DNA from: Anaerolineales bacterium
GTDB lineage: Bacteria > Chloroflexota > Anaerolineae > Anaerolineales > UBA11579
Assembly: GCA_016932165.1 (NCBI GenBank)
Contig: JAFGDK010000103.1
Coordinates: 28,068 to 92,067, forward strand
Direction of reading: 5' to 3'
DNA: 64,000 bases
Shown here piece after piece: positions 19,052-58,224 of the stretch. A program made the translations under genes and the position numbers. The notes below the pieces were generated by a model. It ran no database searches. It was not told the DNA's origin and worked only from the letters and a program-made list of their open reading frames with translations. Within the stretch, counting starts at the first letter, position 1. Every line of letters starts with the position of its first letter.

Positions 19052-19547
19052 ATTGTACCGAAAATGTACACTTAAATCAACCCCCAAACCCACCTTTTAG
19101 AGACTTTTGAGTTATCAATTATGCAAATTTACGCTAAAAATTAGAGATTAAGGGTCTATTTGCGCGAAATTGGCGGTTTTCACGTAAAAATGACCCCCAC
19201 TTCGCACCGCAGGATTTTTTCAGGATCCCATCCGTGTAAAAAGAACTCTGTTGTGGTATATTTAATGCTAATTCTACTTCCTAAAAGGCTTTAAGCTTTT
19301 CTTTAGCTCCAACAAAAACTTCACCAGCAGCTTCGACCCAAACACAATAAACATCGGTATTTACCCTGACCGGTGTCGCCCAGTTTACGGACCAGCCCAA
19401 CAGAGCGCTCCGTGGCAGCGTCCCAGCTTGAGGCAGGCCGCGCGCCGAGCTCTTCCTTACTCTGATCAGGCAATATCGGCGGCGCGGAGCGCAGGAATTG
19501 TGTATATAATCTATTTGTGATAAATATTACTTTATGACTTATGTCAA

Positions 19548-19575
19548 TTACATTTCCCAATATCCTCGATATACT
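19548..19575 (+). promoter_or_regulatory. possible sigma70-type promoter for the cytochrome operon (TTACAT-N16-TATACT)
   Basis: The hexamers sit ~50 nt upstream of the GTG start. A strong RBS GAGAGGAGGA lies at 19607-19616. Confidence 0.3.
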
Positions 19576-19623
19576 CAAAATAGATGAAACTAGGACGCAC
19601 AGGTAGAGAGGAGGAACTCATAA

Positions 19624-20181
19624 GTGAGTCAACCAAATCCCACTAAGAAGAGACCGAAATGGCTCTATTGGATTGGTGCTATCGCCGCACTGGGCTTGAT
19701 CTTCATCATCGCCTGGATGACCGTTGAGACTGGCATTGAAGTCACCTCGCGGGCTGATTTCTGCGGCGTATGCCATGTGATGGAACCGATGGTCGATTCC
19801 TACAAAGCGGCCATGCACGGCGGCAATAACCCGCGCGGCATCATGACCGCCTGTACGGACTGCCATGTCTCCCACGAAAATGTATTCGCCCACTTTGTCG
19901 GCAAAGCCCGTTCAGGCACCCACGATATTGTCGTCACCGCGTTCACCGATGAGCGCAACAATGACTGGCAGGCCCTGCGGGAAGAACGCGAGAGCTATGT
20001 CTATGATTCCGGCTGCCTAACCTGCCACCGCAACCTTGCGAATGTCGAGGGGGTCAACAAAGAGCACAACAACTATTTCGCCGGTCTGATCGAGGCCCAG
20101 TGCGTCACCTGCCACGAAGAAGTAGGCCACAACAACCTGAACAAATACCTGCTCTCGAACAAATATGAGAGCGAAAACTAA
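19624..20181 (+). CDS. NapC/NirT/NrfH-family membrane-anchored tetraheme cytochrome c (quinol dehydrogenase)
   Basis: N-terminal TM (WLYWIGAIAALGLIFIIAWM) plus four CxxCH motifs (CGVCH, CTDCH, CLTCH, CVTCH). 185 aa. GTG start with a GGAGG RBS. Confidence 0.85.
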   Translation: MSQPNPTKKRPKWLYWIGAIAALGLIFIIAWMTVETGIEVTSRADFCGVCHVMEPMVDSYKAAMHGGNNPRGIMTACTDCHVSHENVFAHFVGKARSGTHDIVVTAFTDERNNDWQALREERESYVYDSGCLTCHRNLANVEGVNKEHNNYFAGLIEAQCVTCHEEVGHNNLNKYLLSNKYESEN

Positions 20182-20199
20182 ACAAGGAAGAGGTGAAGG

Positions 20200-21516
20200 A
20201 TGAAAAAAAAGAAACTGATCGTACTCACAACTGTCTTGCTGCTGATCAGCTTTGTGTTTGCCGCCTGTTCGCAGCAAACTGAAACTGCCGAAACCAAACA
20301 AACCGCAGATTACTCAAAATTCACCGACGAAGCCAAGGAATGTCTGGAATGCCACGCACTAGAAACCCCCGGGATCGTCTCCGCCTGGGATGCCAGCGCC
20401 CATGCCATCGGTGAAGTCAGCTGCATCGACTGCCACCAGGTTGAGCCCGGTTCCCCAATGGAACTCAAAGGCATCGAAGACCACGAAGATCTGGATGTCA
20501 GTCTCTCGATGCTGGTGCCGGCGAATGTGTGCCAGGAATGCCACGAGGACCAGGTAGAGCAATTTCATGCCAGCGGCCACGAACGCGCCTACCTCCAGAT
20601 GGAAGCCAAAGAAAGCATGCAAGCCCTGATGTACTACCACGAGGGACAGCAGAACGAAGAGCTGGGCGGCGCTCCCGCTGAGACTGGCTGCTTCCAATGC
20701 CACGGCAGCAGAATTGAAGTTGACGAGACCGGCCACCCCACTCCTGATACCTACCCGGCATCTGGGATTGGCAATGTTTACCCCAACGGGGAAATCGGAA
20801 ACTGTGTGGTCTGCCACACCCGCCACAGTTTCTCGATCGCTGAAGCCCGTCGTCCGGAGGCCTGCGCGTCCTGCCACCTCGGCCCCGACCACCCGGACAT
20901 CGAGATCTATGAAGCCAGCAAACACGGACAGATCTATCATTCAGACGGCGACAACTGGGTCTGGGACCGGGCGCCCGGTGAATGGGAACCCGGCGACTAC
21001 ACCGCCCCGACCTGCGCTACCTGCCATATGTCCGGCATCGGCGACCTGGAGATGAGCCATAACATCACCGAACGCCTCTACTGGAACCTGTGGGCGCCGC
21101 TCTCCAAGCCACGCACAGAGGCGGATGTCTTCGATACCTATTATGGTGACGGTGAGAAGGGCCGGGAGCTGATGACCCAGGTCTGCCTCAACTGTCACTC
21201 CTCCGCCCTGGTGGAAGGTCACTTCGCCTCAAGTGACAAGGCCGTGGAACTCTACAACCAGGAATACTTCCTGGAAGCAGACGCCATGCGCACTGACCTT
21301 GCCGAGAAAGGGCTGCTGAATGACAATCCCTGGAAGGATGAATTCGAGGTTGTGTACTATTACCTGTGGCATCACGAAGGCCGCCGTGCCCGCCAGGGCG
21401 CCATCATGGCCGGGGCAGATTGGGCCCACTGGCACGGTTTCTTTGAAATAATGCAGGACATTTACAAGCTGGAAGAGTTATATAAGGAACGCATCGAGAC
21501 AGGTGCTGGCAACTAG
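20200..21516 (+). CDS. octaheme c-type cytochrome lipoprotein (HAO/ONR/OTR-like multiheme family)
   Basis: Lipoprotein signal with lipobox FAAC. Eight CxxCH motifs (CLECH, CIDCH, CQECH, CFQCH, CVVCH, CASCH, CATCH, CLNCH) and no CxxCK. 19 nt downstream of the NrfH-like gene. Confidence 0.8.
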   Translation: MKKKKLIVLTTVLLLISFVFAACSQQTETAETKQTADYSKFTDEAKECLECHALETPGIVSAWDASAHAIGEVSCIDCHQVEPGSPMELKGIEDHEDLDVSLSMLVPANVCQECHEDQVEQFHASGHERAYLQMEAKESMQALMYYHEGQQNEELGGAPAETGCFQCHGSRIEVDETGHPTPDTYPASGIGNVYPNGEIGNCVVCHTRHSFSIAEARRPEACASCHLGPDHPDIEIYEASKHGQIYHSDGDNWVWDRAPGEWEPGDYTAPTCATCHMSGIGDLEMSHNITERLYWNLWAPLSKPRTEADVFDTYYGDGEKGRELMTQVCLNCHSSALVEGHFASSDKAVELYNQEYFLEADAMRTDLAEKGLLNDNPWKDEFEVVYYYLWHHEGRRARQGAIMAGADWAHWHGFFEIMQDIYKLEELYKERIETGAGN

Positions 21517-21538
21517 CCCCCCTCAAGAGTGCTCAGCC

Positions 21539-21570
21539 AAAAATCCCCGCCAGGCTGGCGGGGATTTTTT
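21539..21570. terminator. bidirectional rho-independent terminator between convergent genes
   Basis: AAAAA-ATCCCCGCC-aggct-GGCGGGGAT-TTTTTT. A perfect 9-bp GC-rich stem flanked by an A-run and a T-run. Confidence 0.8.
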
Positions 21571-21612
21571 ATGTGTTTGTACCAAGAAACAAGGCAACCA
21601 CATCACAGGCAC

Positions 21613-23130
21613 TTACCGCTTCTTCTGTTTGTTGCTTCTGCTCCAATTTTCTCTCCGGCCAGAGCCCCGCCCCTTCTCCTGCCGGCCAGACCCGCCTTGC
21701 CCAGACCCAGAACGTCTCTGACCCCGCGGCTTGGACTCTTTCCGCTTGGCCTTGGTGCCCACCGCTTCCAGTTTGGGTGGGTGATGCATCCATTCGTGAT
21801 AGGTATCATCCAGCAGCATCGCCAGCAAGCTAATCCCTTCTTCGTCTTCAGCAAGTTCTTTCACCAACGGGAGGAAGCGCTGCATACGCTCAATCTGCAG
21901 CCGGTCGCGGTGGCGCAATTTTGCCTCCAGCTGCCCGATCAGGCGCTGGGAGACCAGGTTCTCCACATCCTCATCCTGGGGCAGCTTCCTTTCGGTGAAC
22001 TCGATCTTATAATGCGCCCCGATGCGGGTCAGTTGGCGTTCCTCATTGTAATTCACCAGCATGATCGCTGTGCCGCTGGCACCGGCCCGGCCTGTGCGCC
22101 CCGCCCGGTGGATATAGGCTTCCAAGTCCTCTGGCGGTTCGTACTGGATCACGTGCGAGAGGTCTGGGATATCAATCCCACGGGCGGCCACATCGGTCGC
22201 CACCAGAAAACGCAGCCGCCCCTCGCGCAGACGATTGAGCACCTCATCCCGGGCACTCTGCGAAAGGTCGGAACTGAGCTGGTCGGCATTGAAGCCGAAG
22301 CGCTGCAGCACGCGGGCCACGTAAAAGACCCGGTCCTTGGTATTGCAGAAGATGAGCGTCTGCTGCGGATTCTCCATCTCGATGATCCGCACCAGAGCGC
22401 GGTCCTTCTCCATCCCCGGCATAAGGTAAAAGACGTGCTCGGTATCCTCCACGTAGATCGTTTCGCGGCTCAGGCTGATGAACTCCGGCTCTTCCAGGAA
22501 GTAGCTGGTCAGGTGCATTACCTGGGCTGGGAAGGTCGCCGAGAACATCCCGGTCTGCACCGGTCGGTCGGGCAGGAACTCCTGTACCCGCAGCATATCC
22601 TCAAAGAAGCCCATCGACATCATCCGGTCAGCCTCGTCGAAGACCAGGATCCTGAGATCATCCAGTTTGAGATTGCGCTTGATCAAGTGATCGAGGATCC
22701 GCCCAGGCGTACCGACAACCAGCTGCACACCCTCCTTGAAAGCCTCGATTTGGGGCTTATAGCTGCTCCCGCCATACACGGAAACTACCCCAAAATTGGT
22801 ACCAGCAGCCAGCGCCGTGGCATCGCGCGCCACCTGCTGGGCCAGTTCCCGCGTCGGCACCAGGATCAGCGCCTGGCAGGCCTTCTTGTTGGTATCCACC
22901 AGCTCGAGGATCGGCAGGATGAACGCCCCGGTCTTGCCGCTGCCGGTCTGGGCCTGCACCATCAGGTCCACTCCCGCTCGGAAGTACGGGATCGCCTTCT
23001 TCTGCACCGGCATCAGCTCGCTCCAGCCCACCTGGGCAACAGCCTTCTGCATCACGGCGGGCATCTGGTCTATCGTGATCTCTGGTAAGGGAGTTTTGCT
23101 CTCTTCAGTCATTTTATACCTCTGTCTCAT
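21613..23130 (-). CDS. DEAD-box ATP-dependent RNA helicase with an RG-rich C-terminal tail
   Basis: Q-motif, AQTGSGKT, DEAD, SAT and HRAGRTGRAG motifs. The C-terminus is rich in RGG/RGS repeats. The true start may be the Met at residue 7. Confidence 0.9.
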   Translation of the reverse strand: MRQRYKMTEESKTPLPEITIDQMPAVMQKAVAQVGWSELMPVQKKAIPYFRAGVDLMVQAQTGSGKTGAFILPILELVDTNKKACQALILVPTRELAQQVARDATALAAGTNFGVVSVYGGSSYKPQIEAFKEGVQLVVGTPGRILDHLIKRNLKLDDLRILVFDEADRMMSMGFFEDMLRVQEFLPDRPVQTGMFSATFPAQVMHLTSYFLEEPEFISLSRETIYVEDTEHVFYLMPGMEKDRALVRIIEMENPQQTLIFCNTKDRVFYVARVLQRFGFNADQLSSDLSQSARDEVLNRLREGRLRFLVATDVAARGIDIPDLSHVIQYEPPEDLEAYIHRAGRTGRAGASGTAIMLVNYNEERQLTRIGAHYKIEFTERKLPQDEDVENLVSQRLIGQLEAKLRHRDRLQIERMQRFLPLVKELAEDEEGISLLAMLLDDTYHEWMHHPPKLEAVGTKAKRKESKPRGQRRSGSGQGGSGRQEKGRGSGRRENWSRSNKQKKR

Positions 23131-27606: not shown

Positions 27607-28044
27607 ATGGAATTTTTTAACCGGTTGATACACGCACTCACCCAAAGCCACCCCATCCACCCGATGATCGTGCATTTCCCAATTGCCCTCAGCGGAGCAG
27701 CTCTGCTGTTCATTCTAATCGCCTGGGTAAGAAAAGACCGCAACTTTGAAATGATGGCCTTCGCCAACCTGGTGCTGACAGTGTTTGGCACTCTCGCCGC
27801 TGGACTCACCGGATTGTACGACAACAACCGGAATTACCTCGGAGAGGCCCCTAATGCCAACCTGAAAATTGTGCTGGCAATCCTGATGCTGGCGGTTTCA
27901 GCCCTTACCGCATTTTTGCGCATGCGCAGTCCTGAATTGCTCTTTTCAAAAGGGAAACTTTTATATCTTGCCGGTTATCTGATCAGTTTTTTGCTTGCCA
28001 TCACACTCGCCTTTTTAGGCGGCGTAATTCTATATGGCTTTTAG
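27607..28044 (+). CDS. DUF2231-family membrane protein
   Basis: HPIHPMIVHFPIAL motif and 4 TM segments. Family is commonly adjacent to cytochrome c genes. Confidence 0.6.
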   Translation: MEFFNRLIHALTQSHPIHPMIVHFPIALSGAALLFILIAWVRKDRNFEMMAFANLVLTVFGTLAAGLTGLYDNNRNYLGEAPNANLKIVLAILMLAVSALTAFLRMRSPELLFSKGKLLYLAGYLISFLLAITLAFLGGVILYGF

Positions 28045-28053
28045 GAGACAACC

Positions 28054-28566
28054 ATGAACTTTAAACATCGAATCATCACCCTTACACTGATTAGCCTGTT
28101 GGCCGTCTTAGTAGCCGGGTGCGGTGGGAAAACTGCTCCTGCCGCGAACCTGCCTGAAGAGAACCTGGCCTCTGATCCAGCGGAGATGCCCGTAGAAGAA
28201 GGCAATGTCAACCAGCCTGAAATCGAACCGGGGCCTGAACCAACGGAAGAACCAGCGCCCGCTGAAGAACAGCCCACTGTTGCGAGCGAAGTCAGCTTCG
28301 CGGCAGATGTGCTGCCCATTCTGGACAGCCGCTGCCTGAACTGCCATGGTGGCGAAAGAGTGGAAGGGGATTTTGTGCTCAGCACCTATGCCGAGCTGAT
28401 GGACGGCGGAGAAAGCGGCCCGGCAGTGATTCCCGGTGATGCTGATTCCAGCTACCTGGCTGAACTGATTTTGGCACAAGAAATGCCCAAACGCGGCCCT
28501 AAACTAACCCCGGTACAGACCCAAACGATCATTGACTGGATTAACCAGGGAGCCCCGAATAACTGA
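28054..28566 (+). CDS. lipoprotein with a single-heme PSCyt1-type (Planctomycete-type) cytochrome c domain
   Basis: Lipobox LVAGC. ADVLPILDSRCLNCHGGERVEGDFVL...GGESGPAVIPGDADSSYL...MP...LT..Q...I.DWI.QGA matches the PSCyt1 domain pattern with one CxxCH. Confidence 0.65.
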   Translation: MNFKHRIITLTLISLLAVLVAGCGGKTAPAANLPEENLASDPAEMPVEEGNVNQPEIEPGPEPTEEPAPAEEQPTVASEVSFAADVLPILDSRCLNCHGGERVEGDFVLSTYAELMDGGESGPAVIPGDADSSYLAELILAQEMPKRGPKLTPVQTQTIIDWINQGAPNN

Positions 28567-42204: not shown

Positions 42205-43569
42205 ATGCGACCTGTTTATGCTGTGTCAGGCGGGGTCTCTAAGTTTGCCAAAGCCCGTCCCGACAAAACCTTCCAGGCGATTGTCAAAGAAGCCTACGAC
42301 TATGCCATAGCAGATATCGGCCTGGATTTTCCAACCTTCACCTCCCTTGTGGATGGATCGGTGGCCTCCTATTTCTCGGACCATTTTTCCCGCCAGCTGA
42401 TGGCCGCCATCATGGCGCAGGATTACCTCGGTCTGATCCCCAAACCCAGCCACCGCGTGGAAGGCGGCGGGGCAACGGGCGGCTTGAACTTCCAGGAAGC
42501 ATGGAAATCTATCGCCTCCGGACACATGGATATCTGCGTCTCATACGGTTTCGAGACTATGAGCCATGTGGAGACCTGGAAAGGCAACGAGTTCATCGCC
42601 CTGGCCTCAGATGCCTCCTGGGATTATCCGGTTGGTGGGTTTTACTCCGGCTACTACGCCATGATGGTCACCCGGCACATGAAAGAATTCGGCACCACTG
42701 TCGAGCAGATGGCGCACGTCTCGGTCAAGAACCACATCAACGCCTACCATAACCCCTACGCCCAGAAGCGCAGCCGCTACACGATCGAGGACATCCGCAA
42801 TTCGCCCATGGTCGCCTGGCCGCTGACCCGGCTGGATATCTGCGTGATGTCCGACGGCGCGGCGGCCACCATCCTGGTCTCGGAAGAGGGTTTGGAGAAG
42901 CTTGAGAAAGCTGGCGCCAACATCCCCCGCCCACTGGTTCTCGTAACCGGGATCGGGCGCGGCACGGATGCCATGCGCATGTCCGACCGGCCGCACGCGG
43001 ATTACGACACCTTCATGCGTGATTACGCCACAGAGCAGGAGCGCGGATCGGATGAAACCAGAGCCTACTACCAAAAGCTCTGGGATCACGGCACCCGCTA
43101 CCCCGGGGTGCACTCTTTCCGTGCCGGGCGCACCGCGGGCAACATGGCCTACCAGCACGCCGGGATCAGCGACCCACTGGAAGAGCTGGACTTTGTCGAG
43201 CTGCACGATGCCTACACCTCCAGCGAGATCCAGACCTATGAAGACCTTGGCCTGTGCCGGTACGGCGAGGGAGGACCCTTCGCCGCTTCGGGGAAGGCAT
43301 TCATGCCCGGTGTGGACTACGGCCTGGACCTGGAGGATGATCCGGTCTGCCCGGTAAACCCCTCCGGCGGGTTGATCGCCTGCGGGCACCCTGTGGGTGC
43401 CACCGGTTTGATGCAAGCCGTCTTCGCCATCTGGCAGTTACAAAATTCAATTGAGAAACATTTCCAGGACAGCACACTTCAGCTAAAGGATGCCCGCAGA
43501 GGGGCAATCCATTCGCATGCCGGCACCGGCACTTACGTCACCGTCTCCATCCTGGAAAGGGAGGAGTAG
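42205..43569 (+). CDS. thiolase-fold protein lacking the nucleophilic cysteine (Ltp2-like aldolase / SCP-x-type thiolase-like protein)
   Basis: Thiolase-like N and C domains. The expected active-site block RVExACASG is replaced by RVEGGGATGG, so there is no nucleophilic Cys. Directly followed by a DUF35 gene. Confidence 0.6.
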   Translation: MRPVYAVSGGVSKFAKARPDKTFQAIVKEAYDYAIADIGLDFPTFTSLVDGSVASYFSDHFSRQLMAAIMAQDYLGLIPKPSHRVEGGGATGGLNFQEAWKSIASGHMDICVSYGFETMSHVETWKGNEFIALASDASWDYPVGGFYSGYYAMMVTRHMKEFGTTVEQMAHVSVKNHINAYHNPYAQKRSRYTIEDIRNSPMVAWPLTRLDICVMSDGAAATILVSEEGLEKLEKAGANIPRPLVLVTGIGRGTDAMRMSDRPHADYDTFMRDYATEQERGSDETRAYYQKLWDHGTRYPGVHSFRAGRTAGNMAYQHAGISDPLEELDFVELHDAYTSSEIQTYEDLGLCRYGEGGPFAASGKAFMPGVDYGLDLEDDPVCPVNPSGGLIACGHPVGATGLMQAVFAIWQLQNSIEKHFQDSTLQLKDARRGAIHSHAGTGTYVTVSILEREE

Positions 43570-43571
43570 TC

Positions 43572-44123
43572 ATGGCCAAGCTGACCAACAAACGCGAAGA
43601 AAACCTGGGCGGGTATATCGTTCACGGCATCCCGTTCCCCATCGAGACCGACCCGGACTCGCTCGCCTTCCTCAAAAAGATGGCGCCTATCCAGATCGAG
43701 CAGCCGTATGCGATCACCTACCTGCATTCCTACGGCCAGGACAGCCCCTGGTTTGCGGCAGTATCGAATAAAAAATTACTCACCACACAGGATCCGGAGT
43801 CTGGCTACACCTACGGCACACCACGCGGCCATGACATGTACAGCGGCAGTGAAACTGTCTGGATCGACATCACCGACCGCCCTGCCAAAGTTCATGCCTT
43901 CACCGTCTGCCACTTTGGCTCGGAGGAATTCCTGCCTGAAACGCCGTTTGTGCTGGCCCTGGTGCAGTTCGAAGGCGTCAATACTCTCTTCCTGACGCGT
44001 CTCTTGGGCGTGGACCCGGATGAAGCATCCCTGGATTGGATCGAGATGCCGGTAGAACCCCGATTTCTGCGCAACAGCAAGCTTAAACCAACCGATGTTT
44101 ATTTCGTCCCGGCCAGCGGATGA
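43572..44123 (+). CDS. DUF35 OB-fold protein with a degenerate (Cys-less) zinc ribbon, partner of the thiolase-like protein
   Basis: The OB-fold segment FTVCHFG...PFVLALVQFEG is typical of DUF35/ChsH2-C-like proteins. Only one Cys in the protein, so there is no Cys4 ribbon. 2-nt gap after the thiolase-like gene. Confidence 0.5.
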   Translation: MAKLTNKREENLGGYIVHGIPFPIETDPDSLAFLKKMAPIQIEQPYAITYLHSYGQDSPWFAAVSNKKLLTTQDPESGYTYGTPRGHDMYSGSETVWIDITDRPAKVHAFTVCHFGSEEFLPETPFVLALVQFEGVNTLFLTRLLGVDPDEASLDWIEMPVEPRFLRNSKLKPTDVYFVPASG

Positions 44124-44263
44124 CCAGATGATCTAAAAATTTGATCCCCACCCTGGCGAGGTTCACTGCCAGGGTGGAAGGTATTGCTGCACATCGCAGT
44201 CCTCAAGAATAAGTCTGATAGATCATGTGATGCAGGCAATCAAGGATAGAAAGGGTTAACAAA

Positions 44264-46213
44264 ATGGATGATGAAGACGACCGGGTTGTATGGCGTCCCT
44301 CTGAAGAGCAGATCGCGCACGCCAACGTCACCGCCTTCTTGCGGCAGATCGGCATCTCTGACTATTTTGAGATGATTGCCCAGTCCGCCGCAGACCCCGC
44401 CTGGTACACAGATCAATTACTAAAATTCCTGGATATCCGCTTCCGAAAGCCTTATCGCACTGTCCTTGACCTGCAGGACGGGATTGAATGGCCGCGCTGG
44501 TGTGTTGGAGGCGAGATAAACATCATCGACAACTGCCTCGACAAGCGCATGGAGACGGATACCGCCGATCAGCCCGCCCTGATCTGGGAAGGGGAGAACG
44601 GCAACACCCGCACTTTGACTTACCGCCAGCTTAACCACTTGGTCAACAAAACAGCCAATGCCCTGCGGAAGCTGGGTGTAAAAAAAGGGGATGCTGTCGG
44701 GCTGTTCCTGCCCATGGTCCCTGAAGTGGTGATTGCCCTGCTGTCTATCGCCAAGATCGGTGCGGTGATATTGCCGCTTTTCTCCGGCTACGGCGCAGCC
44801 GCGGTGCGGGACCGCATGGCGGATGCCAAGGCCCGCGCACTATTCACAGTTGATGGGGGATATCATAACGGCCGGCTGAACCCTCTCAAGGAAACTGCAG
44901 ACCAGGCCCTCGAGCCTCTGGGTCATGTAGAGCATGTCATCGTCGCCCGGTATGCAGAATGCTCAGTCACGATGCGGGCAGGGCGTGACCACTGGTGGCA
45001 TGACCTCGTTGATCCCCAGCCAGATGAGGCTGAAACTGAAAACACCTCAGCTGAGGATTTGATCATGCTGATCTACACCTCCGGCACCACCGGTAAACCC
45101 AAGGGAACGATGCACACCCATTGCGGTTTTCCGGTCAAAGTCACACAGGATGCCGCCTTCAACCAGGACGTTCACCCCGGCGAAGTGGTTTACTGGATCA
45201 CCGACATGGGCTGGATGATGGGCCCCTGGATTGTGTTCAGCACCCTGCTGTTGGGGGCGACTATGTTCATTTACAGCGGTTCTCCCACCTACCCCGACAT
45301 GGGGCGTATCTGGAAGATGGTGGAAAGACACCGGATCAATATGCTGGGCCTATCCCCCACCTTTGTCCGCGCCATCCGCCCCCACGGTACAGAACCAATC
45401 CGCAAATACGATCTCAGCAGCCTGCGCATGTTCTCCTCCACCGGCGAGCCGTGGACTCCCGAGGCCTGGAACTGGCTGTTCTACGAAGTGGGCGAAGGTA
45501 AACGCCCAATCATTAACTATACGGGCGGCACCGAGATCGGCGGGGGCATCTTGATGGATAGTCCGGTGCTGCCGATCAAACCGGCATCGTTTGCCTCTCC
45601 CTGCCCGGGGATAGATGCAGATGTGTATGATGAAGACGGCAAACCGGTGCGCGGCAAAGTTGGAGAACTGGTCTGCAAGTCGCCCTGGATCGGGATGACG
45701 CGCGGCTTCTGGAATGACCGGCAGCGCTATCTGGAGACCTACTGGACGCGCTGGCCTGGCGTGTGGGTGCACGGCGATTGGGCGCGCCTGGACAAAACCG
45801 GCACCTGGGAAGTTCTCGGCCGCTCTGATGACACCATCAAGGTGGCCGGTAAGCGGCTTGGCCCCGCCGAAGTGGAAGCGGCCCTGGATGGACATCCGAG
45901 CGTGGTCGAATCTGCTGCCATCGGTGTGCCGGATAAGATCAAAGGCTCAAGTGTGGTCTGCTTTGCTGTGCTTACTGACCCAGAAGAAGGCACAGAGGAG
46001 CTGCAATCAGCCCTTAAACAGCTGGTGATCGAACGTCTGGGAAAGCCTTTGGCGCCGCGGGAAATCATCTTCATCCGGAAACTTCCCAAAACACGCAACG
46101 GCAAGGTGATGCGCCGCATGATCCGGGCAGCCCACCTTAAGTTTGATCCTGGGGATACCTCAGCGCTGGAGGATCCCGCCGCACTGGCAGATATTCCCCC
46201 AATATCTAATTGA
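44264..46213 (+). CDS. AMP-forming acyl-CoA synthetase of the acetyl-/acetoacetyl-CoA synthetase family
   Basis: YTSGTTGKPKGTMHTH AMP-binding motif. The GDWARLDKTGTWEVLGRSDDTIKVAGKRLGPAEVEAAL A8/A10 region. ~650 aa with an ACS-type N-terminal extension. Confidence 0.8.
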   Translation: MDDEDDRVVWRPSEEQIAHANVTAFLRQIGISDYFEMIAQSAADPAWYTDQLLKFLDIRFRKPYRTVLDLQDGIEWPRWCVGGEINIIDNCLDKRMETDTADQPALIWEGENGNTRTLTYRQLNHLVNKTANALRKLGVKKGDAVGLFLPMVPEVVIALLSIAKIGAVILPLFSGYGAAAVRDRMADAKARALFTVDGGYHNGRLNPLKETADQALEPLGHVEHVIVARYAECSVTMRAGRDHWWHDLVDPQPDEAETENTSAEDLIMLIYTSGTTGKPKGTMHTHCGFPVKVTQDAAFNQDVHPGEVVYWITDMGWMMGPWIVFSTLLLGATMFIYSGSPTYPDMGRIWKMVERHRINMLGLSPTFVRAIRPHGTEPIRKYDLSSLRMFSSTGEPWTPEAWNWLFYEVGEGKRPIINYTGGTEIGGGILMDSPVLPIKPASFASPCPGIDADVYDEDGKPVRGKVGELVCKSPWIGMTRGFWNDRQRYLETYWTRWPGVWVHGDWARLDKTGTWEVLGRSDDTIKVAGKRLGPAEVEAALDGHPSVVESAAIGVPDKIKGSSVVCFAVLTDPEEGTEELQSALKQLVIERLGKPLAPREIIFIRKLPKTRNGKVMRRMIRAAHLKFDPGDTSALEDPAALADIPPISN

Positions 46214-46244
46214 TTGCTAAACCAAAGAATCAGGGAGTAAAAAA

Positions 46245-47393
46245 ATGGATTTTGAACTCAACCAAGAACAACGCATGTGGCAAAACACCGTCCACGATTT
46301 TTGCGACCAGCACATACGCCCCTATGCGGCGGAATTCGATGAAAAAGCCGAACCGATGAAAATGACCTTCAGAAAAATGGGGGCATTGGGGTTACTGGCG
46401 CTGAATATCCCTGAAGAATTTGGCGGCGCTGGTATGGATGCGGTCAGTGCAGCGATTGCGATAGATGAACTGGGGTACGCAGACGGCGGTACTGCCCTTT
46501 CGATCGCTGCCCACAATGGATTGGGGTGTGCCCCAATCTCAATGTTTGGCAGCCAGATGCAAAAAGAGGAATGGCTGCCCGGCCTGTCCAGTGGAGAAAG
46601 CGGACTGGGAGCCCTGGCCTTGACTGAACCGGGTGCTGGGTCTGATCTTGTCCGCGGGCTGTCTACCCGGGCAGAACTAGACGGCGATTCCTGGGTGATC
46701 AACGGCAGCAAGGCCTGGATCACCAATGCCAGCCTGGCCCCGGTGATCATCACCCTTTGCCGGACTGATCCAGAGGCTGGCACGGCCGGGTTCAGCCTGA
46801 TCCTGGTTCCATCCGGTACTCCCGGCCTGCATATCCATCCTTCTGAGAAAAAAATGGGGGTCCGCTCATCACCCACCCACGCGCTCACTTTTGAGAATGT
46901 CCGCGTCCCTGCAGCAAACGTGCTCGGGGAAGCCGGACAGGGGCTCTACCAGACCCTGCAAATCCTTGATGGAGGGCGGATCAGTATTGGGGCGTTATCG
47001 CTGGGAATCGCACGCGCGGCGCTGGATGAAGCGATCCGCTATGCCAAGGAAAGGGAACTGTTCGGCAAACAGCTAGCCGATCTGCAGGCCACCCGCTTTA
47101 AACTCGCCGATTGCCAGGTCGAGATCGATGCTGCCCAGCTTCTGGTCTACCGCGCTGCCTGGCTAAAGGAAGAAGGAAAACCTTTCACGCGTGAAGCCGC
47201 AATAGCGAAACTGTATGCCACGGAGATGGCTGAACGCGTCTGCCGGGAAGCAATCCAGATTCTCGGCTCTTACGGCTACAGCCGGGAATATCCGGTAGAA
47301 CGGATGTACCGCGATGCCCGTTTAATGACTATTGGTGAAGGCACCAGTGAGGTGCAGCGGATGGTTATTGCCAAGCGGGTAATAAGCGGTTAG
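46245..47393 (+). CDS. acyl-CoA dehydrogenase
   Basis: ACAD N, middle and C domains. Catalytic-base context YRDARLMTIGEGTSEVQRMVIA at the C-terminus. Confidence 0.85.
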   Translation: MDFELNQEQRMWQNTVHDFCDQHIRPYAAEFDEKAEPMKMTFRKMGALGLLALNIPEEFGGAGMDAVSAAIAIDELGYADGGTALSIAAHNGLGCAPISMFGSQMQKEEWLPGLSSGESGLGALALTEPGAGSDLVRGLSTRAELDGDSWVINGSKAWITNASLAPVIITLCRTDPEAGTAGFSLILVPSGTPGLHIHPSEKKMGVRSSPTHALTFENVRVPAANVLGEAGQGLYQTLQILDGGRISIGALSLGIARAALDEAIRYAKERELFGKQLADLQATRFKLADCQVEIDAAQLLVYRAAWLKEEGKPFTREAAIAKLYATEMAERVCREAIQILGSYGYSREYPVERMYRDARLMTIGEGTSEVQRMVIAKRVISG

Positions 47394-52871: not shown

Positions 52872-55298
52872 TTATCGCTTCCGTGATCGGATCAATTCTC
52901 GCAAACCCTTGAAGAACCGCCCGTTCAACATCTCCAGCACAGATACCAACATTCCCCGGCTGATTTTATCCCCGCCAGCCATTAAAATCCCACGCAGGGG
53001 CATTTCCGCCATCATCGCTTCCATCAGTAAGGTTGTGGGGGAATCCTGATCATCGCCCATTTCTTTTTTACCAAGACTGCTGATCAGATTGAATAAGACC
53101 CGTCCGATAAACGAATCCTTCATATCTTTCAACGGGGTGTTCATCGTGAATTCACCCTTCCTGGGAAGTTGATTCACTGGCAGCGGCCGACCCAACAGGG
53201 CTTGAAACGCCTCCTGGCTAACCGGCGCTCCTTTGGGGAAGTTGTAATACACAGACAGATTATCTTTGTCCACATCTGGCGCTTCTGGTTGGGAAGATAC
53301 TACTTCCACTTCGCCTTTGAGGCGCAGATCCCTTGAAGATGCGCCTATCAGGATTTCGAAGCTACCCGATTCTACATGCCAGCGGTCCAATTCGGTGTTG
53401 TAAAAAGCAAACGCTCGTTGGCTTAGTTCAATGGAAATCTGTTTTTCCTCCCCTGGCTCCAGGCTGAGCTTGGCAAATCCCTTGAGTTCCTTTTCGGGGC
53501 GGAAGACGGTCGATTCTACATCCCGCACATACACCTGCACCACTTCCTTCCCGGCCAACCCGCCGGTGTTCTTCACCTTTAGACTGACGGTCAGATTTTC
53601 TGTGTCCGAGATCTGCGGACTGCTCAAAACCAGGTCACGGTATTCAAAAGTGGTATAACTCAGCCCATGCCCAAACGGGAAGAGCACTTCCTCGTTTACA
53701 CTATCAAAATAGCGGTAGCCCACATAGATGCTCTCGCGGTATTCTACGGTGGCGGGCCCCATAGGGAAGTATGGGTGTGAGGGGTTATCTTCCAGGTGAA
53801 TGGGAAAGGTTTCCGCCAATTTGCCGCAGGGGGTGACCCGGCCAGTTAAAATATCGGCCAGCGCACCCGCCCCGGCCTGCCCGCCGAGATAGCCTTCCAG
53901 GATAGCTGGCACATCGTCGACCCAGGGCATCTCCACCGGCGCCCCGTTGCTCAGCACTACCACCACTTTCTCAAATTCGGCTGCCAGCCTTTCGATCAAA
54001 GCATCGTGCCCCGGCGGCATCTTCATGTGTGTGCGGTCCAGCCCTTCGGTCTCATACAGATCGGTCAGTCCAGCGCAGACCAGGACCACATCCGCATCTC
54101 TGGCTGTATACACCGCCTCGGAAATTAAAATTTCGTCCGGGTAATCCGCCCTTTTGGTGTATCCCGGCGCATAGCTGACCTGCTCCTCGCCGACCAGCTT
54201 GACCAGTTCAGCGTAGAAATTATCCAGCCGGGACGGGTTCATCAGCGAGCTGCCCGCCCCCTGATAGCGTGGCTCTTTGGCAAACCGCCCGATCACGGCA
54301 ATCCTGATTCCCCCCTTCAGAGGCAGTAAGCCACCCTCATTTTTCAGCAGCACCGCCCCTTCCGCAGCCACGATACGAGCAAGCCGGTGATGTGTCTGGG
54401 CATCATAGACATAATCTTCTGACAGCGTCTTTTGTGCCTTGAAGATCATCGCAAGAATGCGTTCTACGGCTGCATCCAGCACGGATTCATCCAGAATCCC
54501 AGACTTCACCGCATCAACGATCAATTCATCGTTGCCGTTGTTTGCCCCGGGCATCTCCAGTTCCACCCCGGCTTTCAACGCCGGCACGCGTTCGTTCATC
54601 GCCCCCCAATCGGAGACCACCAGGCCCTCATGGCCCCATTCCTCCTTGAGGATCTCAGCCATCAAATGGGGGTGCTCGCAGCAGTAGGTGCCGTTCACGC
54701 GGTTGTAAGCGCCCATCACCGTCCACGGCTGGGCTTCTTTCACCGCGATCTCAAATCCCGCCAGGTAGATCTCCCGCAGGGCGCGCTCATCGACCAGTGC
54801 ATCGATCGACATGCGGCGGGTTTCCTGGTTGTTGACCGCATAATGCTTCAAAGATGTCCCCACCCCCTGGCTCTGCACCCCGTTGATATAACTCTTGGCC
54901 ATCTCTCCGCTCAGGTAGGGATCCTCAGAGAAATATTCAAAGTTACGACCGCATAAGGGCGATCGTTTGATGTTCGCCCCTGGTCCAAGGATCACCGACA
55001 CCTTCTCCTGGCGGCATTCCTCTCCCAGGGCTGCACCCACCTGATAGAGCAGGTCTCGATTCCAGGTTGCTGCCAAAGCTGATGCTGTCGGGAAACAAGT
55101 GGCAGGCAAGCTCTCGTTAAGGCCAATATGATCAGCCTGATCCAGTTCTTTACGCAGACCGTGCGGCCCATCGGCAACCATCACCCGAGGAATACCCAGC
55201 CGGTCAATCCCTTTCAACTCCCAGAAATTCTTACCAGAACAAAGTGAGGCTTTCTCCTCAACTGTCATCTGTGAAATAAGTCCTTTGATATCCCTCAT
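52872..55298 (-). CDS. glycoside hydrolase family 3 beta-glucosidase (BglX-like) with a C-terminal FnIII-like domain
   Basis: DGPHGLR, KHYAVNNQE and GLVVSDWGA (the SDW nucleophile region). 808 aa. Confidence 0.85.
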   Translation of the reverse strand: MRDIKGLISQMTVEEKASLCSGKNFWELKGIDRLGIPRVMVADGPHGLRKELDQADHIGLNESLPATCFPTASALAATWNRDLLYQVGAALGEECRQEKVSVILGPGANIKRSPLCGRNFEYFSEDPYLSGEMAKSYINGVQSQGVGTSLKHYAVNNQETRRMSIDALVDERALREIYLAGFEIAVKEAQPWTVMGAYNRVNGTYCCEHPHLMAEILKEEWGHEGLVVSDWGAMNERVPALKAGVELEMPGANNGNDELIVDAVKSGILDESVLDAAVERILAMIFKAQKTLSEDYVYDAQTHHRLARIVAAEGAVLLKNEGGLLPLKGGIRIAVIGRFAKEPRYQGAGSSLMNPSRLDNFYAELVKLVGEEQVSYAPGYTKRADYPDEILISEAVYTARDADVVLVCAGLTDLYETEGLDRTHMKMPPGHDALIERLAAEFEKVVVVLSNGAPVEMPWVDDVPAILEGYLGGQAGAGALADILTGRVTPCGKLAETFPIHLEDNPSHPYFPMGPATVEYRESIYVGYRYFDSVNEEVLFPFGHGLSYTTFEYRDLVLSSPQISDTENLTVSLKVKNTGGLAGKEVVQVYVRDVESTVFRPEKELKGFAKLSLEPGEEKQISIELSQRAFAFYNTELDRWHVESGSFEILIGASSRDLRLKGEVEVVSSQPEAPDVDKDNLSVYYNFPKGAPVSQEAFQALLGRPLPVNQLPRKGEFTMNTPLKDMKDSFIGRVLFNLISSLGKKEMGDDQDSPTTLLMEAMMAEMPLRGILMAGGDKISRGMLVSVLEMLNGRFFKGLRELIRSRKR

Positions 55299-55517
55299 CT
55301 TCTCTCCATGGTTTTTTTAAATTATCCCACAACTTTCAGCTCACATTCTGAAGGATCATATAAACACGAGGATACAGATTTGACCGAAGCACTTGCCTTG
55401 ATTAAGTAGATCACAGGTAATTTCATGGCAGCTGAAAGCGACTATTTGCTTGGTATGACCAGTGCTTATGTGCACATGAAAATTACTAATCACCATTATC
55501 GTTTAGGAGATTTCAAA

Positions 55518-56324
55518 GTGAAAGTTAAAGGTAAAGTATTTCTGGTAACAGGTGGGGGAAGCGGGATAGGGCGCGCACTGGTTATCGATTTAGTCAATCG
55601 AGGAGCAGAAGTTGCCGCTTTGGATATCAACGCTGACACCCTGGAGGAAACTAAAGCGCTGGCCGGAGAACTCGGCGACAAAATTTCGACCCACATCGTT
55701 AATGTCTCAGATCGGGAAGCCGTGGAAAAGCTGCCTGAAAAGATGATTGAAAAACACGGCGCCATCGATGGGATCATCAACAACGCGGGGATCATCCAGC
55801 CTTTCGTACCGGTAAAAGACCTGGATTATGAAACCATTGATAGAGTGATGAGTGTGAACCTTTTGGGCCCACTATATGTGACCAAGACGTTCCTCCCCCA
55901 TCTCCTTGTAAGGCCTGAAGGCCATATCGTGAATGTATCCAGCATGGGCGGGTTCTTCCCATTCCCCGGTCAAACCATCTACGGCGCGACAAAAGCAGGC
56001 GTGAAATTACTGACTGAGGGCTTGCATTCCGAGCTGAGTGATACCAATGTCAGGGTAACGGTAGTTTTCCCAGGTGCCATTGAAACCAATATCAACAAGA
56101 ATTCAGGGATCACCATGGAACGGCAATCCGAGAATGGGTCAAGCGCATTGAAACCGCTGCCGGCTGAAGAAGCGGCCAGGATGATCATTGATGGAATCGA
56201 GGTAGATAAATACAGCATTCTGGTTGGGAATGATGCCAAAGTGATGGATAAGTTCTATCGCATCAGCCCACGGCGCGCCGCTGGTTTTATCAACAAACAA
56301 ATGAAGGGTTTGATTGCTCAATAA
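55518..56324 (+). CDS. short-chain dehydrogenase/reductase (SDR)
   Basis: TGGGSGIGRA cofactor motif. NNAG. YGATKAG is the YxxxK catalytic motif. Start taken at the GTG at 55518 preceded by AGGAG; the ORF is open to 55425. Confidence 0.8.
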   Translation: MKVKGKVFLVTGGGSGIGRALVIDLVNRGAEVAALDINADTLEETKALAGELGDKISTHIVNVSDREAVEKLPEKMIEKHGAIDGIINNAGIIQPFVPVKDLDYETIDRVMSVNLLGPLYVTKTFLPHLLVRPEGHIVNVSSMGGFFPFPGQTIYGATKAGVKLLTEGLHSELSDTNVRVTVVFPGAIETNINKNSGITMERQSENGSSALKPLPAEEAARMIIDGIEVDKYSILVGNDAKVMDKFYRISPRRAAGFINKQMKGLIAQ

Positions 56325-56355
56325 GCTGAGTCAATCTGCTGAGATGGACTAAAAA

Positions 56356-58133: not shown

Positions 58134-58224
58134 ACCAACCCGGGTAAATTTCTCATTGATCCCACCCCACCCAATTAGCATCCCTCGTGACTCGCAAGTG
58201 GCTGCCAATCAGTACGGCGTCTGA

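What the first reader, a model, noticed from the sequence alone, without database searches (positions are those of the whole stretch)
19624..21516. NapC/NrfH-type quinol dehydrogenase plus a lipoprotein octaheme cytochrome c (HAO-family-like): a compact respiratory reductase module next to the dcw cluster
The first gene has one TM and four CxxCH motifs (NrfH/NapC/CymA architecture). The second is a lipoprotein with exactly eight CxxCH motifs, no CxxCK and no obvious molybdopterin or Fe-S partners. That pattern fits the octaheme HAO/epsilon-Hao/ONR/OTR clade, not pentaheme NrfA. Such pairs act as quinol-oxidising reductases for nitrite, hydroxylamine, tetrathionate or sulfite in other lineages. 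The substrate here is unknown.
Basis: partly seen in the sequence, partly recalled or inferred. Interest (0 to 1): 0.6.

Follow-up and report, generated by a model that had tools for sequence, protein, structure and literature searches.

The report
Quinol-linked octaheme nitrite reductase (εHao-type) operon
This is a two-gene operon in an Anaerolineales (Chloroflexota) genome that pairs a membrane-anchored, NrfH-type four-heme quinol oxidase with an eight-heme enzyme of the hydroxylamine-oxidoreductase family; the enzyme lacks the tyrosine cross-link of nitrifier enzymes, so it most likely reduces nitrite or hydroxylamine to ammonium, making it an ordinary new member of a known enzyme family.

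Summary
ORF1 (19624-20181) has one transmembrane helix and four CxxCH motifs. It keeps the three NrfH quinol-site residues Met53, Lys94 and Asp101. ORF2 (20200-21516) is a lipoprotein with exactly eight CxxCH motifs and no CxxCK.

ORF2 belongs to the HAO family (PF13447). All eight heme motifs align one-to-one with Nitrosomonas HAO, and the catalytic Asp-His pair is invariant. There is no tyrosine in the region that carries the cross-linking Tyr467 of nitrifier HAO. Instead it has the Met403...Trp411 pair reported as the signature of reductive εHao.

It is 47-52% identical over its full length to homologues in Campylobacter, Arcobacter and Helicobacter, the phylum in which εHao was characterised. 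Its closest solved structure is the Ignicoccus nitrite reductase IhOCC.

An NrfH-like gene sits directly upstream in 71 of 74 related loci across many phyla. In Chloroflexi relatives nothing else in the neighbourhood is conserved.

Best reading: a menaquinol:nitrite/hydroxylamine oxidoreductase that produces ammonium, analogous to NrfHA. ONR, OTR, MccA, NrfA and oxidative HAO are excluded as families. The product (ammonium, NO or hydroxylamine) cannot be decided from sequence. The dcw neighbourhood is incidental. This is a new member of a known kind and of low to moderate interest.

The parts
19534..19547 (+). Candidate Crp/Fnr-type palindrome ATGACttatGTCAA. Its centre lies about 41.5 nt upstream of a transcription start inferred from the -10 hexamer. 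This is weak, inferred evidence.
   Evidence: Sequence read. The same TTGAY-N4-RTCAA type of box is found upstream of nrfH-hao in 9 of 73 related loci, against 3.7 expected from shuffles. Only one other Chloroflexi locus has it.
19547..19575 (+). Sigma-70-like promoter candidate (ATTACA, 17 nt spacer, TATACT)
   Evidence: The number of such matches in the region is no more than chance gives, so this is a consensus match only.
19606..19616 (+). Shine-Dalgarno sequence GAGAGGAGGAA for ORF1
   Evidence: It lies 7 nt upstream of the GTG start at 19624.
19624..20181 (+). NrfH-type membrane-anchored tetraheme cytochrome c, the predicted menaquinol dehydrogenase (185 aa). It has a TM helix at about residues 13-34 and heme motifs at residues 47, 77, 131 and 160. 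The first motif is CxxCHxM (Met53). Lys94 and Asp101 match D. vulgaris NrfH Lys82 and Asp89.
   Evidence: Pfam PF03264, E 2.3e-23. PDB 2J7A_C NrfH, E 1.6e-9, with an alignment showing Met49, Lys82 and Asp89 conserved. Across 57 partner genes, Lys and Asp are conserved in 57 of 57 and Met in 52 of 57.
20186..20199 (+). Shine-Dalgarno region GGAAGAGGTGAAGG for ORF2, within the 18-nt intergenic gap
20200..21516 (+). Octaheme cytochrome c of the HAO family, εHao-type (Tyr-less, predicted reductive), 438 aa
20200..20268 (+). Lipoprotein signal peptide with lipobox F-A-A-C; the Cys23 codon is at 20266-20268
   Evidence: A lipobox is present in 116 of 117 close (55-78% identical) homologues. It is absent from most homologues in other phyla.
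20689..20703 (+). Fourth heme motif, C164-F-Q-C-H168. It aligns with the catalytic (P460) heme 4 motif CTMCH of Nitrosomonas HAO.
   Evidence: MAFFT alignment. That this is the catalytic heme is inferred by homology.
20887..20892 (+). Asp230-His231, equivalent to the distal-pocket catalytic pair Asp267-His268 of Nitrosomonas HAO
   Evidence: Alignments. Invariant in 117 of 117 and 57 of 57 family members.
21406..21432 (+). Met403...Trp411 segment (MAGADWAHW). This region corresponds to the cross-linking Tyr467 of nitrifier HAO. It contains no Tyr and carries the Met and Trp-eight-residues-later pair described for εHao.
   Evidence: The NeHAO C-terminal sequence was verified against 4FAS. The signature is described in PMC8940962, which cites Haase 2017.
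21539..21569 (.). Bidirectional intrinsic-terminator-like hairpin (14-bp stem, 7 G-C pairs, flanked by A-run and T-run). It lies between ORF2 and the convergent DEAD-box helicase gene.

Best explanation
The two genes encode a membrane-bound menaquinol:nitrite (and hydroxylamine) oxidoreductase of the εHao type. It is functionally analogous to the NrfHA nitrite-ammonifying complex.

ORF1 is anchored by one N-terminal helix, with its four hemes on the outer face of the cytoplasmic membrane. It oxidises menaquinol at the heme 1 site, which is defined by Met53 (CxxCHxM), Lys94 and Asp101, and passes electrons along its hemes. ORF2 is held at the same face by a lipid anchor, which is the usual solution in a lineage without a conventional periplasm. 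It receives the electrons through its chain of bis-His hemes and delivers them to heme 4 (C164xxCH). There, the conserved Asp230-His231 pair supplies protons for reduction of nitrite and/or hydroxylamine, most likely to ammonium.

Because the tyrosine that cross-links heme 4 in nitrifier and anammox HAOs is absent, the enzyme is expected to run in the reductive direction only.

Shown here: the architecture, family membership, motif and residue conservation, absence of the Tyr, and conserved gene pairing. Inferred: complex formation, the quinol donor, five-coordination of heme 4, trimeric state, substrate and product.
For: (1) Family. PF13447 scores 113 bits. The best solved relatives are all HAO-family proteins, led by the nitrite/hydroxylamine reductase IhOCC.

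(2) All eight CxxCH motifs align one-to-one with NeHAO. The heme 4 motif is aligned, and the Asp-His pair is invariant.

(3) Residues 400-415 contain no Tyr. Met403 and Trp411 are invariant in 117 of 117 and 57 of 57 relatives. This matches the εHao signature quoted in PMC8940962.

(4) ORF2 is 47-52% identical over its full length to homologues in Campylobacter concisus, Arcobacter and Helicobacter suis. εHao enzymes from Campylobacterota reduce nitrite and hydroxylamine with negligible hydroxylamine oxidation (PMC8042395) and mediate respiratory nitrite reduction to ammonia (PMC9938260).

(5) An NrfH-like tetraheme gene lies immediately upstream in 71 of 74 evaluable loci across at least 8 phyla. 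In Chloroflexi relatives it is the only conserved neighbour.

(6) ORF1 keeps the D. vulgaris NrfH residues Met49, Lys82 and Asp89.

(7) The genes have tight operon structure with their own terminator.

(8) The model shows three long, high-confidence C-terminal helices (335-369, 381-402, 406-434). These match the oligomerisation helices of this cytochrome group (PMC9250108).
Against: No activity data exist for any Chloroflexi member. The Campylobacterota homologues retrieved here are not the four proteins that were assayed (C. fetus, C. curvus, Caminibacter mediatlanticus, Nautilia profundicola).

Product specificity cannot be read from sequence. The Tyr-less anammox HAOr makes NO, and Nautilia physiology was interpreted as nitrite to hydroxylamine.

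No nitrate reductase, hcp or cytochrome c maturation genes lie in this 64-kb window, so there is no physiological context.

ORF1 scores 75.9 bits against the NCBIfam NrfH equivalog, below its cut-off of 134.2.

The AlphaFold model lacks hemes and superposes poorly as a whole (TM 0.38), so no residue-level structural inference was made.

The register of the Tyr467 alignment is ambiguous and gives W408, H410 or W411. No register gives a Tyr.
Confidence: 0.7

Rival explanations
1. NO-forming nitrite reductase, like the Tyr-less anammox HAOr (Kustc0458). It would carry out one-electron reduction of nitrite to NO rather than six-electron reduction to ammonium.
Against: Identity to Kustc0458 is about 40% over the core only, against about 50% over the full length to the Campylobacterota εHao group. 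HAOr works with a diheme partner (Kustc0457) in a large soluble complex, not with an NrfH-type quinol dehydrogenase. No NO reductase gene is nearby.
Confidence: 0.1
2. Nitrite-to-hydroxylamine reductase or hydroxylamine/nitrosative-stress detoxifier (the 'reverse HURM' scheme proposed for Nautilia profundicola). It would serve assimilation or detoxification rather than energy conservation.
For: The same protein family is implicated in the Nautilia pathway, together with Hcp (PMC8940962). εHao enzymes reduce hydroxylamine in vitro (PMC8042395). The operon is a stand-alone unit among housekeeping genes with no nitrate reductase nearby.
Against: No hcp gene is in the window. Purified εHao enzymes form ammonium from nitrite, and εHao is cited as supporting respiratory nitrite reduction (PMC9938260). 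Strict coupling to a quinol dehydrogenase in 71 of 74 loci fits a respiratory chain at least as well.
Confidence: 0.13
3. Oxidative hydroxylamine or hydrazine dehydrogenase, as in nitrifiers and anammox bacteria. It would feed electrons into the quinone pool through the NapC/NrfH-type protein (forward HURM).
For: It belongs to the same superfamily and shares the Asp-His pair. Nitrifier cytochrome cM552 is also a NapC/NrfH-family protein (established knowledge). JGI auto-annotation calls homologues 'hydroxylamine dehydrogenase'.
Against: The cross-linking Tyr is absent in every alignment register. No cytochrome c554, amo or hzs genes are nearby. The NCBIfam HDH equivalog scores 78 bits against a cut-off of 900. 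Tyr-less HAOs tested so far lack oxidative activity (PMC8042395).
Confidence: 0.02
4. Electron-transfer-only multiheme protein, or a reductase for another acceptor (sulfite, tetrathionate or metals) at the cell surface.
For: Weak Pfam hits to MtrC/MtrF domains and DmsE-type decahemes. Relatives of this superfamily, such as MccA, OTR and OcwA, use other acceptors (PMC9250108).
Confidence: 0.05

Closest known systems
εHao (HaoA) of Campylobacterota with its NapC/NrfH-type partner (Haase, Hermann, Einsle & Simon 2017, Mol Microbiol 105:127; known here through PMC8042395, PMC8940962 and PMC9938260)
   Same: Both have eight CxxCH motifs. Both keep the Asp-His pair. Neither has the cross-linking Tyr. 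Both have the invariant Met and Trp-eight-residues-later pair. Both share a roughly 28-residue insertion between heme motifs 4 and 5 relative to NeHAO. Identity is 47-52% over the full length to Campylobacter, Arcobacter and Helicobacter homologues. Both have an upstream NrfH-like gene.
   Different: This one is from Chloroflexota. It has a lipoprotein anchor instead of a plain signal peptide (116 of 117 close homologues). Position 408 is Trp here, where 48 of 57 members from other phyla have Tyr. It has never been assayed.
IhOCC, the octaheme nitrite/hydroxylamine reductase of Ignicoccus hospitalis (PDB 4QO5)
   Different: Identity is only about 43% in the core and 28% in the C-terminal part. 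IhOCC has Val where this protein, NeHAO and Kustc0458 have the catalytic His (CHLDPDVP versus CHLGPDHP). It has Phe rather than Trp eight residues after the conserved Met.
NrfHA cytochrome c nitrite reductase complex (e.g. Desulfovibrio vulgaris, PDB 2J7A)
   Same: The operon logic is the same: an NrfH-type quinol dehydrogenase gene next to a multiheme nitrite reductase gene. ORF1 keeps the NrfH residues Met49, Lys82 and Asp89. The predicted overall reaction is the same.
   Different: The catalytic subunit here is an octaheme HAO-family protein with a His-ligated CxxCH active heme. It is not a pentaheme NrfA with CxxCK. The NrfA Pfam model scores below its cut-off (19.3 against 24.1 bits).
Kustc0458/0457 HAOr of Kuenenia stuttgartiensis (PDB 6H5L)
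   Same: It is a Tyr-less HAO-family reductase with the same GPDHPD active-site segment.
   Different: Its partner is a diheme protein in a large soluble complex, and its product is NO. It has His, not Met, at the position equivalent to Met403. Identity is about 40% over the core only.
Nitrosomonas europaea HAO (PDB 1FGJ, 4FAS)
   Same: The eight-heme scaffold, the Asp267-His268 pair and the C-terminal helical module are shared.
   Different: NeHAO has the Tyr467 cross-link (P460) and Tyr334, where this protein has Trp298. In NeHAO heme motifs 4 and 5 are only 5 residues apart. It is an oxidative enzyme that works with cytochromes c554 and cM552.

Membership tests
HAO family (Pfam PF13447; the HAO/HDH/IhOCC clade of octaheme cytochromes) | Eight CxxCH motifs alignable one-to-one with a reference HAO | tested here: met
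   Eight motifs are present. MAFFT aligns all eight with the NeHAO motifs.
HAO family (Pfam PF13447; the HAO/HDH/IhOCC clade of octaheme cytochromes) | Profile score above the curated threshold | tested here: met
   PF13447 scores 113 bits against a cut-off of 21.9, E 1.9e-32.
HAO family (Pfam PF13447; the HAO/HDH/IhOCC clade of octaheme cytochromes) | Fold similarity to solved HAO-family structures | tested here: met
HAO family (Pfam PF13447; the HAO/HDH/IhOCC clade of octaheme cytochromes) | Distal-pocket Asp-His pair after heme motif 6 | tested here: met
   Asp230-His231 align with NeHAO Asp267-His268 and are invariant.
HAO family (Pfam PF13447; the HAO/HDH/IhOCC clade of octaheme cytochromes) | Seven bis-His hemes plus one five-coordinate catalytic heme 4 | tested here: inconclusive
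   Ten invariant non-motif His residues are present among close homologues. That is enough for seven distal ligands plus the catalytic His, but coordination cannot be read from sequence or from a heme-free model.
HAO family (Pfam PF13447; the HAO/HDH/IhOCC clade of octaheme cytochromes) | Homotrimer formed through C-terminal helices | not testable with these tools
   Three long C-terminal helices are predicted with pLDDT 92-98. Oligomeric state was not modelled.
εHao / HaoA (reductive, Tyr-less HAO with an NrfH-type partner) | Absence of the cross-linking tyrosine (NeHAO Tyr467) | tested here: met
   Residues 400-415 (GAIMAGADWAHWHGFF) contain no Tyr. The alternative registers give W408, H410 or W411. 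The NeHAO sequence was verified.
εHao / HaoA (reductive, Tyr-less HAO with an NrfH-type partner) | Trp at the Tyr-equivalent position and a conserved Met eight residues before it (as reported in PMC8940962 citing Haase 2017) | tested here: met
   Met403 and Trp411 are invariant in 117 of 117 and 57 of 57 relatives.
εHao / HaoA (reductive, Tyr-less HAO with an NrfH-type partner) | Full-length similarity to the Campylobacterota proteins | tested here: met
   Identity to C. concisus, Arcobacter and H. suis homologues is 45-49% by tblastn and 49-52% by pairwise alignment. The four assayed proteins themselves were not available for comparison.
εHao / HaoA (reductive, Tyr-less HAO with an NrfH-type partner) | Adjacent upstream gene for a NapC/NrfH-type tetraheme cytochrome | tested here: met
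   ORF1 is present here. The same arrangement is found in 71 of 74 evaluable loci.
εHao / HaoA (reductive, Tyr-less HAO with an NrfH-type partner) | Nitrite and hydroxylamine reduction to ammonium, with negligible hydroxylamine oxidation | not testable with these tools
   This needs an enzyme assay.
NrfH (ORF1) | N-terminal membrane helix plus four CxxCH motifs in about 150-200 aa; PF03264 | tested here: met
NrfH (ORF1) | Heme 1 CxxCHxM methionine, plus Lys82 and Asp89 of the D. vulgaris NrfH quinol site | tested here: met
   Met53, Lys94 and Asp101 align with Met49, Lys82 and Asp89.
NrfH (ORF1) | NCBIfam equivalog TIGR03153 above its cut-off | tested here: not met
   It scores 75.9 bits against a cut-off of 134.2. 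ORF1 is NrfH-like, but it is not the NrfA-partner orthologue.
Oxidative HAO/HDH (P460 enzymes of nitrifiers and anammox bacteria) | Tyr cross-link to heme 4 | tested here: not met
   The HDH equivalog scores 78 bits against a cut-off of 900.
ONR (octaheme nitrite reductase, TvNiR type) and NrfA | CxxCK active-site heme motif; sequence or fold similarity | tested here: not met
   No CxxCK is present. ONR structures score Foldseek E of 7.9 or worse. NrfA gives only a local hit (E 0.0024), and PF02335 is below its cut-off.
OTR (octaheme tetrathionate reductase) and MccA (sulfite reductase) | Sequence or fold similarity; active heme in the N-terminal module | tested here: not met

The most novel reading that the evidence does not exclude
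In Anaerolineae, which are abundant in sediments, digesters and anammox reactors, this lipid-anchored εHao-type module could be the main, so far uncounted, route of nitrite ammonification or nitrite/hydroxylamine turnover. Surveys based on nrfA and onr would miss it, and KEGG-style pipelines would mislabel it as 'hydroxylamine dehydrogenase'. The Chloroflexi-specific features (lipid anchor, Trp408 instead of Tyr) might also come with a different product spectrum, such as NO or hydroxylamine release that feeds anammox partners.
Probability: 0.25. Interest if true: 0.45.

Novelty: new member of a known kind. Interest (0 to 1): 0.25.

Why it matters
The window protein is annotated 'hypothetical protein'. 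Several close homologues are even named 'beta-ketoacyl-ACP synthase' in GenBank, and JGI calls others 'hydroxylamine dehydrogenase'. Naming it correctly as a Tyr-less, quinol-linked reductive HAO gives a nitrite/hydroxylamine-reducing capacity to a widespread heterotrophic lineage. It also flags a gene pair that nitrogen-cycle surveys built on nrfA, nirK/S and onr do not count. It does not reveal a new kind of enzyme or mechanism.

Tried and rejected
(1) An exact-sequence contig look-up for ORF2 found nothing on record. The organism label came from the 100%-identical cluster instead.

(2) HMMER local alignments of the family profile to NeHAO stop at about residue 375 and mis-register the N-terminal hemes. 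I therefore did not use them for Tyr467. Instead I used a MAFFT L-INS-i alignment that included Campylobacterota homologues and a NeHAO sequence verified against the PDB. The register still differs by up to 3 residues between methods, so I report only the register-independent fact that no Tyr is present.

(3) The AlphaFold2 model (pLDDT 82) superposes poorly overall (TM 0.38, rmsd about 18 Å) because multiheme proteins are modelled without their hemes. I used it only for hit ranking and for the C-terminal helices.

(4) I looked for a conserved regulatory box. A Crp/Fnr-like palindrome is present here at a class-II-like distance, but enrichment across loci is weak (9 of 73 against 3.7 expected) and it is nearly absent from other Chloroflexi loci. 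It is reported as a lead only.

(5) An Rfam scan of the intergenic regions found nothing above gathering score. Only the terminator hairpin appeared.

(6) Pfam scans of about 30 further window genes found no nitrate reductase, hcp, NO reductase or cytochrome c maturation genes.

(7) Literature searches found no paper specifically describing the Chloroflexi or Anaerolineae εHao-type operon. The primary Haase 2017 paper is not held, so its content is cited second-hand.

Full report
**1. Observation**

ORF1 (19624-20181, + strand, GTG start, 185 aa) begins MSQPNPTKKRPKWLYWIGAIAALGLIFIIAWMTV. This is a basic N-terminus followed by one hydrophobic helix. It carries four CxxCH motifs at residues 47, 77, 131 and 160.

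ORF2 (20200-21516, + strand, 438 aa) begins MKKKKLIVLTTVLLLISFVFAAC, a signal peptide ending in a lipobox with Cys23. It has exactly eight CxxCH motifs at residues 48, 75, 111, 164, 202, 222, 272 and 329. It has no CxxCK. Its 17 cysteines are the 16 heme cysteines plus the lipobox Cys.

Shuffling ORF2 20,000 times gave a mean of 0.03 motifs and a maximum of 2, so the pattern is not chance.

Each gene is preceded by a strong Shine-Dalgarno sequence, and the genes are 18 nt apart. A 14-bp-stem hairpin with flanking A and T runs lies at 21539-21569, between ORF2 and the convergent DEAD-box helicase gene. The pair is therefore a self-contained operon.

It is transcribed divergently from the dcw cluster (mraZ, rsmH, ftsL, ftsI and onward, on the - strand) across a 658-bp AT-rich spacer. 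The window is 100% identical at this protein to GenBank 'MAG: Anaerolineales bacterium', locus JW757_11665, annotated 'hypothetical protein'.

**2. What ORF2 is**

Pfam assigns ORF2 to PF13447, the HAO family, with 113 bits against a cut-off of 21.9. The NrfA model PF02335 is below its threshold.

Against all PDB sequences, the only significant full-domain hits are HAO-family proteins. These are IhOCC of Ignicoccus hospitalis (4QO5; E 4.5e-40, or 1.4e-55 with a profile of 117 homologues), the reductive anammox HAOr Kustc0458 (6H5L), Nitrosomonas HAO (1FGJ, 4FAS, 6M0P), the anammox HOX proteins (4N4J, 6T5E) and hydrazine dehydrogenase (6HIF). ONR, OTR and MccA do not appear.

**3. Active-site and cross-link residues**

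I aligned ORF2 with twelve homologues from other phyla and with NeHAO residues 74-504. The NeHAO sequence was checked against the printed PDB alignment, and its C-terminal 100 residues were verified as 100% identical to 4FAS residues 405-504.

In this alignment all eight heme motifs pair one-to-one. The fourth motif (C164FQCH) aligns with the catalytic P460 heme motif CTMCH.

ORF2, the Campylobacterota proteins and IhOCC share an insertion of about 28 residues between motifs 4 and 5, relative to NeHAO.

Asp230-His231 (CHLGPDHP) align with the NeHAO distal pair Asp267-His268. They are invariant in 117 close homologues and in 57 homologues from many phyla. NeHAO Tyr334 corresponds to Trp298.

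The cross-linking Tyr467 of NeHAO sits in GGWTY467TEGWG. The corresponding segment here is G400-AIMAGADWAHWHGFF-415, which contains no tyrosine. Depending on the register, Tyr467 faces W408, H410 or W411 (and manual anchoring).

PMC8940962, quoting Haase et al. 2017, states that εHao proteins have a Trp at the Tyr-equivalent position and a conserved Met eight residues before it. Here these are Met403 and Trp411, both invariant in 117 of 117 and 57 of 57 relatives.

According to the literature, the Tyr cross-link tunes HAO toward oxidation, and Tyr-less HAOs tested so far act only as reductases (PMC8042395).

**4. Relatives and gene pairing**

More than 6,600 database clusters match ORF2. The 120 best are 55-78% identical. 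The few of these that carry an organism name are Anaerolineae or Chloroflexi MAGs, and 116 of 117 carry a lipobox.

A scan of one genome per species found at least 586 relatives:
- Chloroflexota: 56-72% identity.
- Kiritimatiellia, Verrucomicrobiota and Gammaproteobacteria (Marinobacterium litorale, Pseudohalioglobus lutimaris, Lamprobacter modestohalophilus): 52-56%.
- Desulfobacterota: 43-50%.
- Campylobacterota (Campylobacter concisus, Arcobacter, Helicobacter suis and H. baculiformis): 45-49% over the whole length, or 49-52% by pairwise alignment.
- Planctomycetota and others: about 40%.

By comparison, identity to IhOCC is 43% in the core and 28% at the C-terminus. Identity to Kustc0458 and NeHAO is about 40% over the core only. 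ORF2 therefore belongs to the εHao-type family rather than being an outlier.

At 50% clustering, the whole HAO superfamily comprises 1,340 representative clusters at E of 1e-3 or better and 137 at 1e-30 or better.

In 71 of 74 loci with enough upstream sequence, a tetraheme ORF of about 180-260 aa ends right at the start of the HAO-like gene. It usually carries CxxCHxM. In three Chloroflexi relatives examined with precomputed annotation, the two genes are the only conserved neighbours. Their flanks are unrelated housekeeping genes. The dcw neighbourhood here is therefore incidental.

**5. ORF1**

Pfam PF03264 (the NapC/NirT family) matches at E 2.3e-23. The only solved relative is D. vulgaris NrfH (2J7A_C, E 1.6e-9).

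In that alignment Met53 of CGVCHVM matches Met49. Met49 is the unusual proximal ligand of NrfH heme 1 (established knowledge from the NrfHA structure). Lys94 matches Lys82 and Asp101 matches Asp89. Across 57 partner genes, Lys and Asp are invariant and Met is present in 52.

The NCBIfam NrfH equivalog scores below its cut-off (75.9 against 134.2 bits). ORF1 is therefore NrfH-like in design, but it is not the orthologue that partners NrfA.

**6. Mechanism**

This section is inference by homology.

Menaquinol is oxidised at heme 1 of the membrane-anchored ORF1, on the outer face of the cytoplasmic membrane. Electrons then run through its four hemes into the bis-His heme chain of the lipid-anchored ORF2 and reach heme 4. 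There nitrite and/or hydroxylamine is reduced, with Asp230-His231 acting as the proton relay.

The characterised εHao enzymes reduce nitrite and hydroxylamine and hardly oxidise hydroxylamine (PMC8042395). They are cited as mediating respiratory nitrite reduction to ammonia (PMC9938260). εHao is listed among the known dissimilatory nitrite reductases (PMC10949509).

The lipid anchor is the main lineage-specific adaptation. It fits the view that Chloroflexi lack a conventional outer membrane; this is background knowledge and was not tested here.

**7. Rivals**

- NO-forming nitrite reductase of the HAOr type. It has a similar active-site segment, but a different partner and lower similarity.
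- A nitrite-to-hydroxylamine or detoxifying role, as in the Nautilia 'reverse HURM' proposal (PMC8940962). No hcp gene is in the window.
- Oxidative HAO. The Tyr is absent, and no c554 or amo genes are present.
- An electron-transfer-only role or a non-nitrogen acceptor. The invariant catalytic pair argues against this.

The window contains no nitrate reductase, hcp, nor or cytochrome c maturation genes, so the physiological context cannot be settled here.

**8. Regulation (a lead only)**

A palindrome, ATGACttatGTCAA (19534-19547), lies about 41.5 nt upstream of the transcription start implied by a TATACT -10 hexamer (19570-19575). Boxes of the TTGAY-N4-RTCAA type occur upstream of the operon in 9 of 73 loci, against 3.7 expected, mostly outside the Chloroflexi. 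One relative carries a NarL-type two-component system directly upstream. Rfam finds no RNA element.

**9. Verdict**

This is a new, unassayed, lipid-anchored Chloroflexota member of a known enzyme system. I found no paper in the searchable library that describes the Chloroflexi version. Automated pipelines already label homologues 'hydroxylamine dehydrogenase', and some GenBank records mislabel them 'beta-ketoacyl-ACP synthase'.

Interest is low to moderate. Its value is mainly in annotation and in nitrogen-cycle gene surveys.

Noticed in passing
window 27607-28566 (+): A second small membrane/cytochrome pair lies about 6 kb downstream. It consists of a DUF2231 membrane protein (27607-28044) followed by a 170-aa lipoprotein mono-heme cytochrome c (28054-28566; PF07635 PSCyt1, E 1.8e-13).
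   Followed up: no
homologues P0059, P0074, P0090, P0113: Several 56-61% identical homologues of ORF2 are named 'beta-ketoacyl-ACP synthase' in NCBI records. This is an evident misannotation of an octaheme cytochrome. The window's own protein is 'hypothetical protein', and JGI names others 'hydroxylamine dehydrogenase' or 'formate-dependent nitrite reductase cytochrome c552 subunit'.
   Followed up: no
L083 4433-7223 and L084 4187-6977: In one Chloroflexi relative, a sensor kinase (Tll0287-like, HAMP, GAF and HisKA_3 domains) and a NarL/GerE-type response regulator sit directly upstream of the nrfH-hao pair. They may form a dedicated regulator. Both are absent from the window.
   Followed up: no
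window 19534-19547: A Crp/Fnr-like palindrome, ATGACttatGTCAA, lies at a class-II-like distance from the predicted -10 hexamer. Similar boxes occur upstream of the operon in Campylobacteraceae, Arcobacter, Desulfobacteraceae and Maridesulfovibrio loci, but enrichment overall is weak (9 of 73 against 3.7 expected).
   Followed up: partly
ORF2 residue 408 (window 21421-21423) and family alignment: Position 408, three residues before the invariant Trp411, is Tyr in 48 of 57 family members from other phyla. It is Trp in the window protein and in 8 other members, and nearly always Trp (DWAHWHG) among the 117 close homologues. Its structural role is unknown.
   Followed up: partly
ORF2 residue 68 (window 20401-20403) and family alignment: The conserved His after the first heme motif (SAHA, presumably a distal heme ligand) is replaced by Met in 19 of 57 family members from other phyla. 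This suggests a His/Met-ligated heme in those lineages.
   Followed up: no
PDB 4QO5 alignment: IhOCC, the closest solved structure, has Val where ORF2, NeHAO and Kustc0458 have the catalytic His (CHLDPDVP against CHLGPDHP). It is therefore an imperfect active-site template for this protein.
   Followed up: no
window 52872-63252 (-): Two tandem GH94 phosphorylase genes (58267-60744 and 60766-63252) and a GH3 glycosidase gene (52872-55298) are present. Fatty-acid beta-oxidation-type genes lie at 42205-47393. Together these are consistent with a saccharolytic heterotroph.
   Followed up: no
window 21529-23088 (+): A 519-aa ORF lies antisense to the DEAD-box helicase gene (21613-23130, -). It is almost certainly a spurious shadow ORF, because the helicase has strong Pfam support.
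   Followed up: partly
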